Shown here: piece by piece, positions 18,001 to 27,000 of the stretch
How the letters are laid out: every line of letters starts with the position of its first letter
Numbering within the stretch: position 1 is the stretch's first letter
Assembly: GCA_965602015.1 (NCBI GenBank)
Contig: OZ271918.1
Location: 1,728,001-1,792,000 of the forward strand
Direction: 5' to 3'
Origin: Salinispira sp.
Lineage (GTDB): Bacteria; Spirochaetota; Spirochaetia; DSM-27196; Salinispiraceae
Length of the DNA stretch: 64,000 nt
Made by a program: the position numbers

Positions 18001-21000
18001 TCCGACGTATCGATTGAAACCACTTTGATCATCATCTTTGAGAAGTTCGGGATAGTACCCGGTTTTCCTCACCGGAATAAGGTCCCTTCGTTCCATTCCT
18101 TTATACATGAACCGCAGCGGCATTGCGATAAACAACGGCGTAGTGTCCCAAAGAAGAAAGGCAAACACCGGTAAAAAATATGATTGCGGGAAAATCAATG
18201 CGGGATATACTGATGTGTCTTCTGCGAACGTAACCAATATCTGCATGTCGGAGGGGCTAGGTGAGAACGGTTAAGGCTTACTCGTGGACCACTGTAGCGT
18301 TGCTGCTGCTGATGACCGGATTTCTGCTGTTGTTTTCATTCACCATGGGAGTGGCAAACTTCTTTTCCACCTTAATGAGCACCGCCCATGACCTGTTATT
18401 AAATACCGTCTTTTTTATCATGTCCATAACGGTTCTCGCCGGAGCACTTGGCGCGTTTCTCAGTGAGTTCGGCATCATCGCATTGCTCAATGCCGTATTG
18501 GCACCCTTGGTCAGATTGCTGTGGAGGCTCCCCGGCAGTGCGGCAATCGGCGCTCTTTCCACGTATATCTCCGACAATCCGGCTATAATTGCTCTTTCCA
18601 AGGAAAAGCAGTTTATCGAGTACTTCGAAGAGTGGCAAAAACCCGCATTGACAAATTTCGGAACGAGTTTTGGCATGGGCTTGGTGGTAACGGCATTCAT
18701 GATGGCCCAGGGCTTCCTGCAGGAAGCCCTCATAGGAAATGTCGGGGCGATTATCGGATCAGTTTTCTCAACGAGAATTATGACCTATCTCACCCGCCGC
18801 CACCTCGGAGTCACAGCGGATTCGATGAAGCACACAATTCGCAACAAGACGGAGATCCGCCTGCCCCGCACCCGGGAGATAAGTGACGGGTCCCTCTTTC
18901 AGCGGGTTCTTACCTGTCTGCTTGAGGGAGGCAAAAACGGCCTGGAAATCGGGCTGCAGATAGTACCCGGGGTTCTCGTTATTTGCACCATGGTTTTGAT
19001 GCTCACCTTCGGTCCCGGTGAAGGCGGGTATAACGGCGCTGCATATCAGGGCATTCCCGTAATTCCATTTATCGGTCGGATATTTTGGGTGCCCGTGAGA
19101 TTCGTCTTTGGGTTCACCAGTCCGGACGCCATTGCCTTTCCGGTCACCGCATTGGGAGCCGTCGGGGCCGCCCTTGCCCTGGTGCCCAACTTCCTTGAGC
19201 AAGGGCTTATCGGCGGAACTGATATCGCCGTCTTTACCGCGATCGGGATGTGCTTGTCGGGCTATTTATCAACACATGTGGCAATGATGGATTCCTTGGG
19301 TTTCCGCGAGCTTACCGGGAAGGCCATTGCGGCGCATAGCGTCGGAGGAGTCGTTGCCGGGGCCAGCGCCCATATAATGGTGCGTTTTCTGTTGTGAGCC
19401 GCGAAACACTGCGGAACTAAACCTAATTCTCGTAACTTCTGATTTCCCGGTGAAGAAATGCAAGATTTCGCAGCTTGTCCAGGACACTAAAACCCGACTG
19501 GTGAACCGCTATCAGCGCTTCCTGAAGGGGGATATCATTTGAAGATCCCTGGGCGTATAAAACGCGTTCCTGTTGCCAAGCGTCGAGGGCAAGATCGTAT
19601 TCGTCGAACGCCGTGGTAATTTCAAAGAGAAGCTCAGCCCGCCCTGTCTGCCAGCGCTTAACCCTATCTTCCACTGCCCGTTCGGCGCTTATTATCTCAA
19701 GGGATGCCTGGGTAAGCCGCTCGTCGTGGATGCGTTTTTGAAGGGCAAAACTCCGTCGGAACGGGTCCGAAATATCGAGGCTGACCGATACGCTGAGGTT
19801 CCCCTGCCTGTCTTCCTGAAGTGCGTCAGCCAGATTGTCGTTTCCCGAGGTACCGGGAGTGTCGATAAATGATGCCAAAATGTTCAACCGTGGCGCATCG
19901 ATGTTTCCCGCCTCCTGCAATGCGGAACGAGCGCTTGTTTGAGCCCTCTGGGCTGCCAGAATGTCAGGGTCGTGTTCTATTAGACTACGAATCAGGGATT
20001 CCCAGTCAGGGCTGTAGTTTATTGATGCGCTGTCCGGCAGCATGTAGGGGCTTGCCAGTTCATCGATTTCACGCGCAGTAATTGAGAGCGTAGACGCCAG
20101 GCTCAGCTCGAGATCGTCGATTTGCCCGGCCAGGGCGCGAAAACCGTTTTCCTGGAGTCTGAGAGTTGTTTCTCTTGCCTCAAGCTGGCTGCTTGAAATC
20201 AAACCGAGATCAAATTCCTGTCTGGCCTGCTGGATCAAAATATTCTGAAGCTCCAGGCGTTCGCCGAGCAGGAAATACTGCTCCCGCAGCGACGCCCGGC
20301 GGCCCAAAAGATTTACCATTTGCAGGGAAATGCTCCGGCTTGTGTTTTCGAGGGTCTCGGCTGCTGCATCGCGTTCATGTACCGCTGCAGCCAGACCGGT
20401 ACGAAACACGTCGGCGGCGATAAAGCGACCGTCGAGAAACAGGGGCTGATTTACTCCAAGGGTAAGTGACGGGGTAATCTGATAAGCTCCCCAGCTGTTA
20501 TTGTCCGCTGGCCTGCTGGCATTGACTCTCGCCCCTGCCCCGCCGAAAACCACGCCGCCGGTGGGCAAAGCCTGTTCTATTCCAAGATTGAGGCCGTATT
20601 CAATTGATTCATCTCCCGGATCGCCGAATCCGCTGAATCCCGGACCGCGGCTGTAGGCAAGCAATGCTCCCGAACCCTGACCGCTGTTGATTGACAGGAC
20701 CGGCAGGCGCTTGGACAAGGTATTATCCAGTCCGGCCTGCGCCAACCGCGCAACCGAGGCCAAAATGCGGCCGTCGGATCCCTCTGCAATTCTTTCGACC
20801 AGGGAACCGTAGAGCTCCTGGTAATCGGTGCGGGTTACGCCTTCAAACAGCTCGACAAACAACTCACCACTCCTGAGTTCAATCTCATTCAACAGATCCC
20901 CATCAGTCCGGGTGGTAAAACTTTCTGTTTCGATAGTCCGGGATTCCGGGAGAGCGTCGTGAAACCCCGCGAGCGAAAGGCTGGACTCCTGTGCGCCTAC

Positions 21001-24000: not shown

Positions 24001-27000
24001 GCCTTCACTGGTGGTCGAGTTTATTGAGCTCAGGCTGTCGATGCCCTGAAACTCGTTTTCAACAGGAATGGTGACGCTGGATTCAAGATCCTCGGCAGAA
24101 ACCCCGGGATACGGAACGATGATGTTCACCCAATAAAAGGGCACTTCGGCAAACTGCTCCTGCGGCAGGCGAAGCATGCTGAAAGCACCGAGGGCGATAA
24201 CCGTAACCATAAGGATATTGACCAGTACGGGGTTTTTGACACTAAGCGACCCTATACCCCGAAACTGTTCGGGCTTCAGGTTTTCGAGTTTTTTCATGTA
24301 ACTATCCTGATTCCTAATTCTGCGCGATATCCCGAAGGTCGGACACTATGCGGTCTCCGTCTTCTATCCGGCTGAGGCCACTAACGAGAACCCTGCTGCC
24401 GAGCAGCGTGGTTTCTTCATCAAGGACACGAACAGCGGCCAGTTCGCCATAGCTGTCAAGCAGCTCGACGGAAACCATGCGGGCCACCCCGTCCTCGGCA
24501 ACGTACAGTGTAGCGGTATCATCATCGATAACCAAGGAGGAAAGGGGCACAAGATTCCGTACCGGCTCCATATCGCTCTGTATGCTGACCTGACCGCTCA
24601 TTCCGGCCTTTAACAGCTCAGGGTCGGGATTGTCGAAGGAAACCACAACTCTCCAACTGCCGGTGCGCTGGTCACTGCCGGCGGCGACCGCCGATACTTG
24701 ACCGCTGGCGCCGATGCTGCCTTGGGGGCTTGGGATGACAATGCTGGCGGGCAGGCCTTCCCGGACGAGGAAGATCTGATCCTGACCGAGGGAAAGCTGA
24801 ATGCGGAGCCTTGAGAGATCGACGACCCGGGCGATTTGCTGTCCGCTGGCTAAAAGGTCGCCGGGAATCAGGCTATCGGACTTTTCTGCGATGCGCCCCG
24901 AGATGGGGCTGCTGATTGCCGTGAAATTGAGGGCATCCCGGGCCCGCTCGAGCCGGGCTGCCAATCCGTCTACCCGGGCCTGAACCTGATTTAGCTGATT
25001 AAGAGAAATCGAACCCCGGTTATACAGATTGCGCTGGCTTTCGAGGTCTGCAACGGCACTTTGATACTCGCCGCTGAGCTGCTGCCAGGTCAGCCGGGCT
25101 ATCCGGCTATCAAGTTGTACAAGGGTATCGTTTGCGGATATTTGGTCCCCGAGCTCAAAGTCCACTGACTGGATTACGCCATTGGTGAACGGCCGGAGAA
25201 TGACTTCCTGAATGCCTTGGATGGTTCCGCTGGCCTCAATGCTATCCCGAAGCCTGCCCTGGCGGACCGCAACGGTTTCGACGGCCAGTGCTTCGGTGTC
25301 GTTTGTGAGCCCTTGAGTCTCCTCGGCCGGTAGCGCCTGCACATCTTCGGCGGGAGCACAGGCGTTAATAACCACGCTCATCAATAGAGCAATCGCAGCT
25401 ATTCCTCTTGTGTATTTCTGTTTCTGCGGGCTTTTTGTATCACTCGCCGATATAGTCATGCGCTTTATCCTTTACTTCTTGTCTCTGTGAAAAAATACGA
25501 ATATCACATAATGAAATCAATCAGTATTTTATTGCTTGTGCAAAATATCTATCACTCAGTGTGATCACAGTAAAGGAATACAGAGAGCTTCGTTTGAAGG
25601 AAATCCATAGTGAGGGCATTGCGAGTTGACACGGTTAAGAAGATGAGGTAGCATGTTGACTGATACAGAAGTATAGGTATCGCGATATCGGTAGTACACA
25701 GTCACATCTGCCCTTTGACGTTCGTTAAAGCCGCACTGTCCTTGTAGTTTCCATATCAGCAAAACCCTATCCTTGTATTAATACTCTATAAGGAGGCATT
25801 TTATGGAAAAAGGTACCGTAAAATGGTTTAACGAAAGCAAAGGCTTTGGATTTATCAGCAAGGAAGACGGTGAGGACATTTTTGTTCATCACACCGGCAT
25901 TGTAGCCGACGGATTCCGTACCCTTCGCGAAGGCGCAGCAGTGGAGTTCACTGTAGAGCAGAGCGACAAGGGTCCCCGGGCAGTATCTGTCCGCGAACTG
26001 TAAGCCGATACGCTGACGTTCGAACCTTAAACAGACAAGCGGTGAATCATCATGATTCACCGCTTTTTTTTTGTCCCTGGCTGCGGGGATGGGAAAAGGC
26101 GAAACTGAGAAACAGGAGCAGCAGGGCTATCAGCAGGTACACCGGAATGACCTCGAGCCCGTAGATTCCCGCCAGAACACCGGCAATTGAAGGAATGACC
26201 GCGGCACCAAGTCCCGCGGCGGAAATCTGCATTCCGATCGTATTCGCCTGGTGCTTCAGTCCCACACGGTTATGAGTGTCGGAAACCAGGCCGGGGAAGA
26301 TGGGCGCGATGGAGAAGCCCGTCAGGGCGATTCCCGCAACGCTGACTGCGGGCCCCAGATTCAGCAGCAGGAGCCCGGCTCCCAGGGATGCGAAGCCGAT
26401 ACTGAAAAAAAGCATCGGTTTGACGGGTATGCGAAGGGCATAAATTCCGGCGATAATGCGGCCGAGAGTGAACATTCCCCAATAGCCCCCGGTGACCACG
26501 CCGGCAAGCGTCGGATCAACTCCCCTCGATTCGGTCAATAGGGAGTACGCCCACAGTCCGAGCCCGAGCTCCACTCCGGTATAAATAAAAAACATCAGCA
26601 TGCTCAGCAGCGCGGGGATTTGCCTGAGGGTCTGCCCAAGGCTGGCCTGGTTCTCCGGCCGTTGTTCAGCGTGCAGTTCGGTTGTTCCGCCCTGCCACTT
26701 GCGCCTGCTGAAAAAAAACAGGAGGGCAAGCAAGGCCTGAAACGAAGCAACCACGAGGTAACCTGGTTGCCAGCGTCCGCCCAGGGCGATGGACAGGGTC
26801 ATAATAAACGGTCCAAGGGTTATTCCCACCCCGAAACTTGCGTGGAGCCACTGCATAAGGGTTTCGCTGTGGTTCTGCGCAATGTAGGTGTTCAAACCGG
26901 CATCGATGGCACCGGCCCCCAGGCCTCCCAGGGCTGCGAAGCCCGCAAAGAGTCCCCACCAGGGAGTGAGGGCGTACACCAACAGGGTGATCGCGGTGGC

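What a model noticed while it worked through the whole genome (the two positions that open the first line are those of the whole stretch)
19423..25459. RND efflux pump fused to its TolC-like outer-membrane channel in one polypeptide
g01511 (1624 aa) is a complete 12-TM RND transporter (res 17-1024) continued, in one ORF, by a ~50-aa linker, one extra hydrophobic helix ending in a signal-peptidase-like A-x-A/AAQ site (res ~1070-1097) and a full-length TolC/OprM-like outer-membrane factor (res ~1130-1624); the adaptor (g01512) lies just upstream. Boldest reading: the inner-membrane pump and the outer-membrane duct of a tripartite efflux system are made as one precursor, the extra helix acting as an internal signal peptide that puts the OMF part into the periplasm; since only ~35 residues separate it from the TolC fold, too few to reach the outer membrane, signal peptidase probably cuts at the A-x-A site, so the gene is a [...]
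Evidence so far: pfam.tsv: ACR_tran 17-1024 (E 9e-190) + OEP 1186-1377. AlphaFold2 of res 1040-1624 (5-seq MSA, call 28): beta strands + ~70-residue helices; Foldseek PDB: the 42 hits at E<=0.001 are all TolC/OprM/CusC/VceC-family channels, best E 3e-13, ~480 aligned columns. Same architecture and length (1616-1636 aa) in 4 of 4 other proteins found by searching with the C-terminal part alone among 893-2842-aa proteins, incl. Salinispira pacifica, so not an assembly or frameshift artefact. Hydrophobic segment GAGLIALAAIILIVAAPSGLSAQSA read directly, conserved in consensus. Review of tripartite pumps (PMC8277102, passages searched, call 24) mentions no natural RND-OMF fusion. Further searches: 'outer membrane [...]
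(Added by a program. Inside this text positions count along the whole contig: contig position 1,728,001 is position 1 of the stretch shown here. "Call 12" and the like, gene names such as g00115 and contig names such as C1 are that model's own, and its searches are not shown. The text may have been shortened before it was handed on; [...] marks where a part breaks off. The agent that wrote the report below was given it as the finding of a first reader that could run no searches.)

Follow-up and report, generated by a model that had tools for sequence, protein, structure and literature searches.

The report
Efflux pump fused to exit channel
One spirochaete gene encodes an inner-membrane efflux pump and its outer-membrane exit channel as a single chain, joined by the channel's own export signal, so the cell most likely cuts it into two ordinary proteins; the same design turns up in separate branches of Bacteroidota pumps.

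Summary
Confirmed. Window 19423-24297(-) is one 1624-aa ORF: a 12-helix RND transporter, a 13th hydrophobic helix ending L-S-A1094|Q, and a TolC-fold channel. It is not an artefact: I found 12 distinct fused spirochaete proteins.

In 65 related loci the same adaptor-pump-channel operon is split, and the channel starts with its own signal peptide, usually overlapping the pump's stop codon. The 13th helix is therefore most likely that signal peptide, kept inside the chain. Ala1094 is one of only two invariant residues after the pump in 8 fused sequences. Best reading (0.8): signal peptidase I cuts the precursor and an ordinary 3:6:3 pump assembles. Cleavage is inferred, not shown.

The fusion is not unique. 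Bacteroidota CzcA-TolC fusions (verified in 11 of 41 genomes) and Parabacteroides AcrB-type fusions with an internal lipobox sit in separate clades, so there are at least three origins. The spirochaete tree suggests a later re-splitting. This scan noted the Bacteroidota form at least eight times on other DNA. Ten literature searches found no description; I recall, unverified, a fused Bacteroides fragilis bme pump. New variant of a known kind.

The parts
24314..25459 (-). Periplasmic adaptor (membrane fusion protein), 381 aa, with an N-terminal lipobox-like I-N-A-C; separate gene
   Evidence: TIGR01730 156.7 bits over cut-off 94.9; HlyD_D23 and HlyD_3; lies upstream of the RND gene in nearly all related loci; lipobox read from the sequence
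19423..24297 (-). Single ORF, 1624 aa: RND transporter + internal signal peptide + TolC-like outer-membrane factor
21217..24297 (-). RND transporter domain, residues 1-1027, 12 transmembrane helices; below the cut-offs of the HAE-1 and HME subfamily models
   Evidence: best solved relative MexK, E 3.6e-103
23056..23061 (-). D413-H414 in TM4, at the place of the D-D pair of the proton relay
   Evidence: alignment to MexK; V-D-H in 84 of 87 family sequences; AcrB numbering recalled
21484..21489 (-). N937-D938 in TM10, at the place of the K/R-N pair of the proton relay
   Evidence: alignment to MexK; A-V-N-D in 82 of 87
21079..21216 (-). Cytoplasmic linker / n-region, residues 1028-1073: basic at both ends, not conserved, 11-52 aa long in relatives; holds Met1069 (21091-21093) with no Shine-Dalgarno match
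   Evidence: pLDDT below 50
21034..21078 (-). 13th hydrophobic helix (h-region), residues 1074-1088
   Evidence: hydropathy; helix 1074-1087 in both models; present in 12 of 12 fused proteins
21016..21033 (-). c-region P-S-G-L-S-A, residues 1089-1094; predicted signal peptidase I cut between 21016 and 21015 (A1094|Q1095)
   Evidence: top-scoring window of the whole protein, 17.6 against 7.9 for the next; A1094 invariant in 8 of 8 aligned rows; motif in 11 of 12
19426..21015 (-). Predicted mature outer-membrane factor, residues 1095-1624: disordered N-terminus, helix 1132-1150, TolC core from ~1161; four beta-strands in the first repeat and two in the second in the model

Best explanation
The gene is a two-protein precursor. 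Steps: (1) An adaptor-RND-OMF operon, in which the OMF start overlaps the RND stop, lost that stop, so the OMF with its signal peptide was put in frame behind the pump (shown by comparison; the direction is inferred from the tree). (2) The chain is inserted at the Sec translocon; the RND C-terminus ends in the cytoplasm, and helix 13 acts as an internal signal that sends the 530-aa OMF into the periplasm (inferred from RND topology and flanking charges). (3) Signal peptidase I cuts after Ala1094 (inferred from motif conservation; not shown). (4) The freed OMF is assembled as a trimer in the outer membrane by BamA, the pump keeps helix 13 as a leftover anchor, and with six adaptors an ordinary 3:6:3 tripartite pump forms (from established knowledge). 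The fusion fixes the 1:1 ratio of pump to channel; the adaptor, needed at twice that number, stays a separate gene. The substrate is not known; a proton- or cation-driven exporter of hydrophobic or amphiphilic compounds is the default.
For: 65 split loci: the OMF starts 4 nt inside the RND stop (ATGA) in 50, with a 1-nt overlap in 7, at -7 in 4, elsewhere in 4, and the N-termini read as signal peptides. In an automatic alignment of 8 fused sequences only A1094 and L1109 are invariant after D1027. A small-x-A-[Q/E/D] motif follows helix 13 in 11 of 12 fused proteins (2.6 expected from shuffles) and in 0 of 12 after TM1 and 0 of 12 after TM7 (pattern chosen after seeing the sequences, kin not independent). 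A matrix trained on 50 split signal peptides ranks A1094|Q first in this protein. More K/R before the helix and more D/E after it in most fused proteins. No Shine-Dalgarno match at Met1069 (+1.2 kcal/mol), against -4 or better in 61 of 65 split OMF genes. lepB and bamA homologues are in the genome. Convergence: Bacteroidota CzcA-TolC fusions have the motif in 9 of 11, with under 10 residues to the OEP domain in L250, too few for any tether. Parabacteroides HAE-1 fusions carry an internal lipobox before an OprM-type OMF (TIGR01845 above cut-off), the same lipobox that a split orthologue has at its N-terminus. The three fused groups are separate clades (AU p 5e-51). Fused spirochaete pumps are paraphyletic around a split clade (AU p 0.0004), so the two states are exchangeable.
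Against: There are no protein or RNA data; cleavage is not observed. The matrix put the junction first in only 6 of 12 spirochaete fusions, second in 3, and outside the top three in 3. The fused-plus-nested clade has a longer mature OMF N-terminus (73-101 residues to an anchor proline, against 36-54 in outer split forms, 101 in this genus), which a tether would also explain. Two of 9 fused loci (L053, L057) have a strong Shine-Dalgarno site and an in-frame start in the linker. P0002 has a linker with net negative charge.
Confidence: 0.8

Rival explanations
1. The chain is not cut: the channel stays tied to the inner membrane through helix 13 and a flexible tether, so one polypeptide spans both membranes.
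For: The mature OMF N-terminus is longest in this genus (101 residues to the anchor, 66 to the TolC core) and is predicted disordered over 1088-1120. The extension arose on the same branch as the fusion.
Against: An invariant Ala and helix-breaking Pro/Gly at a signal-peptidase position. A similar extension (73-91) is kept in split genes that have an N-terminal signal peptide. Residues 1128-1150 align with the N-terminal segment of OprM/CmeC/OprN, leaving about 35 free residues, about 13 nm stretched, against roughly 15-20 nm needed (dimensions recalled, not measured here). Bacteroidota fusions have no tether at all.
Confidence: 0.08
2. The OMF is made mainly from an internal start (Met1069) as an ordinary pre-protein; the in-frame fusion is a tolerated by-product.
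For: Met1069 sits exactly where an n-region would begin. L053 and L057 have -10 kcal/mol Shine-Dalgarno sites with in-frame starts in the linker. Several Bacteroidota junctions also hold a Met.
Against: No Shine-Dalgarno match at Met1069 or at GTG1060 here; L060 and L096 have no in-frame start codon in the linker; only 2 of 9 fused loci have a strong site. Even with an internal start, read-through product would need the same cut.
Confidence: 0.07
3. The OMF part is a decaying or non-working appendage, and the pump uses another channel of the cell.
For: The OMF part is far less conserved than the pump (37% with G002 and 28% with G004) and is below the TIGR01844 cut-off. The genome has other OEP genes.
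Against: Full length and without stops in all complete fused copies over 50-72% whole-protein identity; both repeats, strands and long helices are predicted at high confidence; split orthologues diverge as much (16-24% identity).
Confidence: 0.04
4. Assembly or sequencing error that removed a stop codon.
For: Most relatives are split: 50 of 80 loci against 6 fused; 24 gave no OMF hit.
Against: 12 distinct fused proteins, one named Salinispira pacifica in NCBI, one cluster with 46 members; contigs agree letter for letter (same sample).
Confidence: 0.01

Closest known systems
AcrAB-TolC / MexAB-OprM / MexJK tripartite RND pumps
   Same: Adaptor, 12-helix RND and TolC-fold channel in one operon; the predicted end product is the same three-part machine.
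   Different: Pump and channel are one ORF; below the cut-offs of TIGR00915, NF000282 and NF033617; D-H / N-D in place of the D-D / K-N relay; the model has two extra beta-strands per channel subunit.
Bacteroidota CusA/CzcA-TolC fusions of ~1450 aa (database entries named only 'CusA/CzcA family', e.g. WP_046147244.1)
   Same: RND, basic stretch, hydrophobic helix, A-x-A|Q-type site, OEP domain.
   Different: Heavy-metal (HME) subfamily, a separate clade; short linker; channel core directly after the site.
Parabacteroides HAE-1 RND-OprM fusions of ~1490 aa (e.g. WP_082207535.1)
   Same: RND plus internal signal plus OMF; a split orthologue exists with ATGA overlap.
   Different: Internal lipobox (signal peptidase II type) and a lipoprotein OMF; true HAE-1; separate clade. 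Seen in 2 of 3 Parabacteroides genomes examined.
Bradyrhizobium japonicum FbcH (cytochrome b-c1 precursor) and Staphylococcus aureus LtaS (both recalled; the papers were not held)
   Same: As recalled: a polytopic membrane protein followed by an internal A-x-A signal that signal peptidase I cuts.
   Different: Products stay at the same membrane or are released; neither yields an outer-membrane beta-barrel. Not verified here.

Membership tests
RND superfamily, AcrB/AcrD/AcrF family (PF00873) | Full-length profile match; 12 transmembrane helices with two large periplasmic loops | tested here: met
   630.8 bits, profile 3-1019 of 1021; 12 hydrophobic segments with gaps 43-349 and 554-865
HAE-1 multidrug RND (AcrB/MexB; TIGR00915, NF000282) | Score above the curated cut-off | tested here: not met
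   394 against 940; 434 against 1250
HAE-1 multidrug RND (AcrB/MexB) | Proton relay D-D in TM4, K-N in TM10, R and T in TM11 | tested here: not met
   D413-H414 and N937-D938; R967 and T974 kept; the AcrB motif is recalled, the MexK alignment is
HME heavy-metal RND (CusA/CzcA; TIGR00914) | Score above the curated cut-off | tested here: not met
   364 against 701
Outer membrane factor (PF02321; TolC fold) | Two OEP repeats; long coiled helices plus beta-strands; TolC fold | tested here: met
   41.7 bits over 22, two stretches; model and fold searches
Outer membrane factor (PF02321; TolC fold) | Trimer in the outer membrane with a 12-stranded barrel | not testable with these tools
   Three full copies exceed the complex tool's size limit; the monomer model shows six strands rather than four
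TolC equivalog model TIGR01844 | Score above the curated cut-off | tested here: not met
   25.8-29 against 225
Tripartite efflux operon | Adjacent periplasmic adaptor gene | tested here: met
   TIGR01730 over cut-off; conserved order
Signal peptidase I substrate | Basic n-region, hydrophobic h-region, c-region with small residues at -3/-1 | tested here: met
   K-K-G / A1074-A1088 / P-S-G-L-S-A|Q; -3 is Leu here; no SignalP was available, a home-made matrix was used
Signal peptidase I substrate | Actual cleavage in vivo | not testable with these tools
   No proteome data
Bacteroidota CzcA-TolC fusion family | Common descent of the fused RND domains | tested here: not met
   Three clades, each with unfused relatives; one clade rejected, AU p 5e-51 (quick tree of 38 rows, long branches flagged)

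The most novel reading that the evidence does not exclude
In this genus the chain is not cut, or only partly, and one polypeptide holds the inner-membrane pump and the outer-membrane channel together across the periplasm through its unusually long (35-66 residue) tether: a covalently pre-assembled trans-envelope pump, possibly with a wider (18-stranded) barrel. The milder novel reading, a signal-peptidase-processed pump-channel precursor that arose at least three times with either peptidase type and can revert, has probability about 0.75 and interest about 0.62.
Probability: 0.08. Interest if true: 0.9.

Novelty: new variant of a known kind. Interest (0 to 1): 0.6.

Why it matters
Tripartite pumps are taught as three genes. 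If the cut is real, bacteria have repeatedly turned the pump and its channel into one precursor that signal peptidase separates, releasing an outer-membrane barrel from the tail of a 12-helix inner-membrane protein. That fixes the 1:1 ratio, makes pump assembly depend on signal peptidase at an internal site, and means databases hide many channels inside proteins labelled only 'RND permease' or 'CzcA'. The spirochaete family adds natural fused and split versions of one orthologous operon, and the Parabacteroides pair adds an internal lipoprotein signal; both make the idea easy to test. The finished machine is probably ordinary, which limits the surprise.

Tried and rejected
Internal start at Met1069: no Shine-Dalgarno match.

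Promoter and terminator scan of 18000-26200: 6 promoter-like sites against 5.8 expected, 16 terminator-like against 9.3 (sd 3.5); one weak hairpin lies in the h-region (21071-21051) and I give it no weight.

Neighbour genes: 47 ORFs scanned (46 of 81 flanking ORFs listed from 30 loci, plus the window's cold-shock gene) show no conserved regulator or cargo, so no substrate clue.

Plasmid search: only distant RNDs at about 31% or less.

Sequencing runs: no RNA holder listed.

AlphaFold2 of residues 1-1130 on 8 rows: pLDDT 57, uninformative on whether helix 13 packs on the pump.

Long 'open frames' of 1455-1578 aa in the Bacteroidota OprM search: 0 of 6 checked were fusions, so for CzcA I count only proteins that I translated and scanned (11 of 41 genomes; 14 of 41 had long frames).

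Phylum-wide search with the OMF profile: 3 of 301 spirochaete genomes at E<=1e-25, only the own genome with a fused-length frame. Representative search: 2 of the best 150 are fused-length. No protein-complex job was sent.

Literature: searches found no description of an RND-OMF fusion. I read matched passages only of PMC8277102 (first 300,000 of 747,818 characters held), PMC4790292, PMC10434189, PMC4446572, PMC5837995, PMC10872679, PMC9360617, PMC12164818 and PMC13082787; no supplements were opened, and these could list such fusions. Three papers were not held.
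Full report
OBSERVATION. The minus-strand ORF 19423-24297 encodes 1624 residues without a stop. 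Pfam finds ACR_tran at 17-1024 (E 5e-189) and two OEP stretches (E 1.4e-10, above cut-off). Hydropathy shows 12 segments in the pump and a 13th at 1074-1092. An adaptor gene lies 16 nt upstream. A model of residues 1040-1624 on 40 rows has pLDDT 83.5: helix 1074-1087, disorder over 1088-1120, helix 1132-1150, then strands and helices of 67-68 residues. Foldseek gives 43 matches at E<=0.001, all listed rows being outer-membrane factors. VIA-align puts TolC residue 2 at residue 1161 (Z 22.3, rmsd 3.8, 378 aligned) and OprM/CmeC/OprN residues 20-23 at 1128-1131. The genome has one other full RND gene and other OEP genes, and lepB and bamA homologues.

NOT AN ARTEFACT. Fused homologues are P0002-P0006 (P0004 is named Salinispira pacifica by NCBI, P0002 and P0006 are labelled 'AcrB/outer membrane protein TolC' by JGI) and loci L022, L053, L057, L060, L081, L096. 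That makes 12 distinct proteins with this one. L021 matches P0004, L070 duplicates L022, L023 is a fragment near P0002, and L053, L057, L081 are cut by contig ends. Seven align at 50-72% identity. Contigs from two of four runs match letter for letter, but all are one sample and may be the source.

THE SPLIT RELATIVES EXPLAIN THE JUNCTION. Of 61 genomes searched with the channel part, 24 matched; four had fused-length frames (own, G001, G002, G004). In 15 of 20 regions fetched the order adaptor-RND-OMF recurs as separate genes (L035 is cut before the adaptor). Of 80 loci from the genome collection (78 titled as spirochaetes), 6 are fused, 50 split and 24 gave no OMF hit. In the 65 split loci the OMF start lies at ATGA overlap in 50, 1-nt overlap in 7, -7 in 4 and elsewhere in 4, and the N-termini read as signal peptides. 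So helix 13 is most simply the OMF's own signal peptide, left inside after loss of a stop.

IS THE SITE STILL SELECTED? In the 12 fused proteins the linker varies from 11 to 52 residues and is not conserved, yet an automatic alignment of 8 leaves only A1094 and L1109 invariant after D1027. A small-x-A-[Q/E/D] motif follows the helix in 11 of 12 (2.6 expected from shuffles; the miss, L096, has A-E-A|A) and in none after TM1 or TM7. I chose the pattern after seeing the sequences and the proteins are kin, so the printed P value overstates. A matrix from 50 split signal peptides (2 of 52 dropped as mis-assigned) ranks A1094|Q first in this protein, 17.6 against 7.9. Across the 12 it ranks the junction first in 6, second in 3, and misses it in 3. 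Met1069 has no Shine-Dalgarno match, unlike 61 of 65 split OMF genes; two of nine fused loci do have a strong site and start in the linker, and two have no start at all.

HISTORY. On a FastTree of 88 RND domains and an IQ-TREE of 35 chosen from them, split forms lie outside, a 100/100 clade has fused forms at its base, and a split clade (mostly Sphaerochaetaceae; 95/98) is nested inside. Holding the fused rows together (with L067, which has no OMF) is rejected, AU p 0.0004 (the group was tested after seeing the first tree). The fewest changes are two, one gain and one loss; three gains are the alternative. The root rests on outgroups with long branches or was set on two split rows. The fused and nested forms share a longer mature OMF N-terminus, 73-101 against 36-54 residues to an anchor.

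NOT UNIQUE. I recalled long CzcA proteins in Bacteroidota and tested this. In 41 genomes, 14 had CzcA hits in frames of 1447-1504 aa. I translated one from each of 11 genomes; all have ACR_tran plus OEP, 9 of 11 with the same motif. In L250 the OEP match begins 7 residues after the site, so a tether is impossible there. Gln at +1 fits the Bacteroidetes Q-rule (PMC5837995, passages read; it gives spirochaete Q-values typically below 20%). Two Parabacteroides proteins are true HAE-1 pumps fused to an OprM-type channel through an internal lipobox; the orthologue in P. distasonis is split, with ATGA overlap and the same lipobox at its N-terminus. The three fused groups fall in separate clades with unfused relatives (AU p 5e-51). 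After these tests I saw that this scan had noted the Bacteroidota CzcA form eight times; those notes agree but are not evidence. No look-alike of this sequence was on record.

MECHANISM. Most likely (0.8): co-translational insertion of the pump; helix 13 opens translocation of the channel; signal peptidase I cuts at A1094|Q1095; BamA builds the trimer; an ordinary 3:6:3 pump assembles. Shown: architecture, conservation, equivalence with split operons, convergence. Inferred: topology, cleavage, assembly, benefit (fixed 1:1 ratio). Rivals: uncut tether (0.08), internal start (0.07), dead appendage (0.04), artefact (0.01). For the tether, about 35 free residues give some 13 nm against roughly 15-20 nm needed (recalled figures), so it is unlikely but not cleanly excluded in this genus. 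The substrate is unknown: the pump is below the HAE-1 and HME cut-offs, its nearest solved relative is MexK, flanking genes are not conserved, and its relay reads D-H / N-D in 84 and 82 of 87 sequences.

LITERATURE AND NOVELTY. Ten searches and matched passages of nine papers gave no description of an RND-OMF fusion. PMC10434189 lists B. thetaiotaomicron BT3968-72 with an adaptor and a CusA/CzcA pump but no TolC gene, without comment. The library is limited to open licences, and supplements were not read. I recall, unverified, that one B. fragilis bme operon was reported with a fused channel, and that B. japonicum FbcH and S. aureus LtaS are cut at internal signal-peptidase sites; those papers were not held. 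Verdict: real, a new variant of a known kind. The architecture is widespread in databases and apparently unstudied; this locus adds an independent origin, probable reversal, and, with the lipobox case, evidence that the buried signal matches the channel type. Interest 0.6.

Noticed in passing
window 570-15973: Integron: integrase-like gene 14714-15973(+) beside an array of attC-like repeats at 570-14170 between short low-GC genes. An element at 1085-5790 bounded by a perfect 20-bp inverted repeat, and a ~500-bp near-duplicate of 587-1084 at 14071-14570.
   Followed up: partly
window 23056-23061 and 21484-21489: The proton relay looks swapped: D-H in TM4 and N-D in TM10 instead of D-D and K-N, in 84 and 82 of 87 family members, fused or split. 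It may mean a different coupling chemistry or ion; unexplained.
   Followed up: partly
window ~20440-20700 (residues 1200-1285): The channel model has four beta-strands in its first repeat and two in the second, joined by a conserved Q-x-L-P-T turn (30 of 40 rows); a trimer could have 18 strands instead of TolC's 12.
   Followed up: partly
window 25803-26003 (+): Cold-shock protein gene divergent from the adaptor, with a sigma-70-like site at 25626-25654 and a two-way terminator-like hairpin at 26037-26065.
   Followed up: partly
L225:2927-7396(-), L226:2783-7279(+), L215:62-4602(-): Parabacteroides AcrB-type pump fused to an OprM-type channel through an internal lipobox, with a split orthologue in P. 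distasonis; implies signal peptidase II acting at an internal site.
   Followed up: yes
   Followed up: no
L053 and L057 linkers: Fused genes that hold a strong Shine-Dalgarno site and an in-frame start just before the internal signal peptide; they are in the sister group of the re-split clade and may be intermediates.
   Followed up: partly
L067:4968-8102: A pump nested among fused forms that ends after TM12 with no channel gene detected downstream: apparent loss of the channel half.
   Followed up: partly
window 29078-32588 (-): Two adjacent Ser/Thr kinase-like genes with zinc-ribbon-like motifs, the first with a degenerate kinase domain.
   Followed up: no
window 18261-19397 (+): 378-aa membrane protein with no Pfam hit, convergent on the fusion gene and ending 25 nt from its stop.
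   Followed up: no
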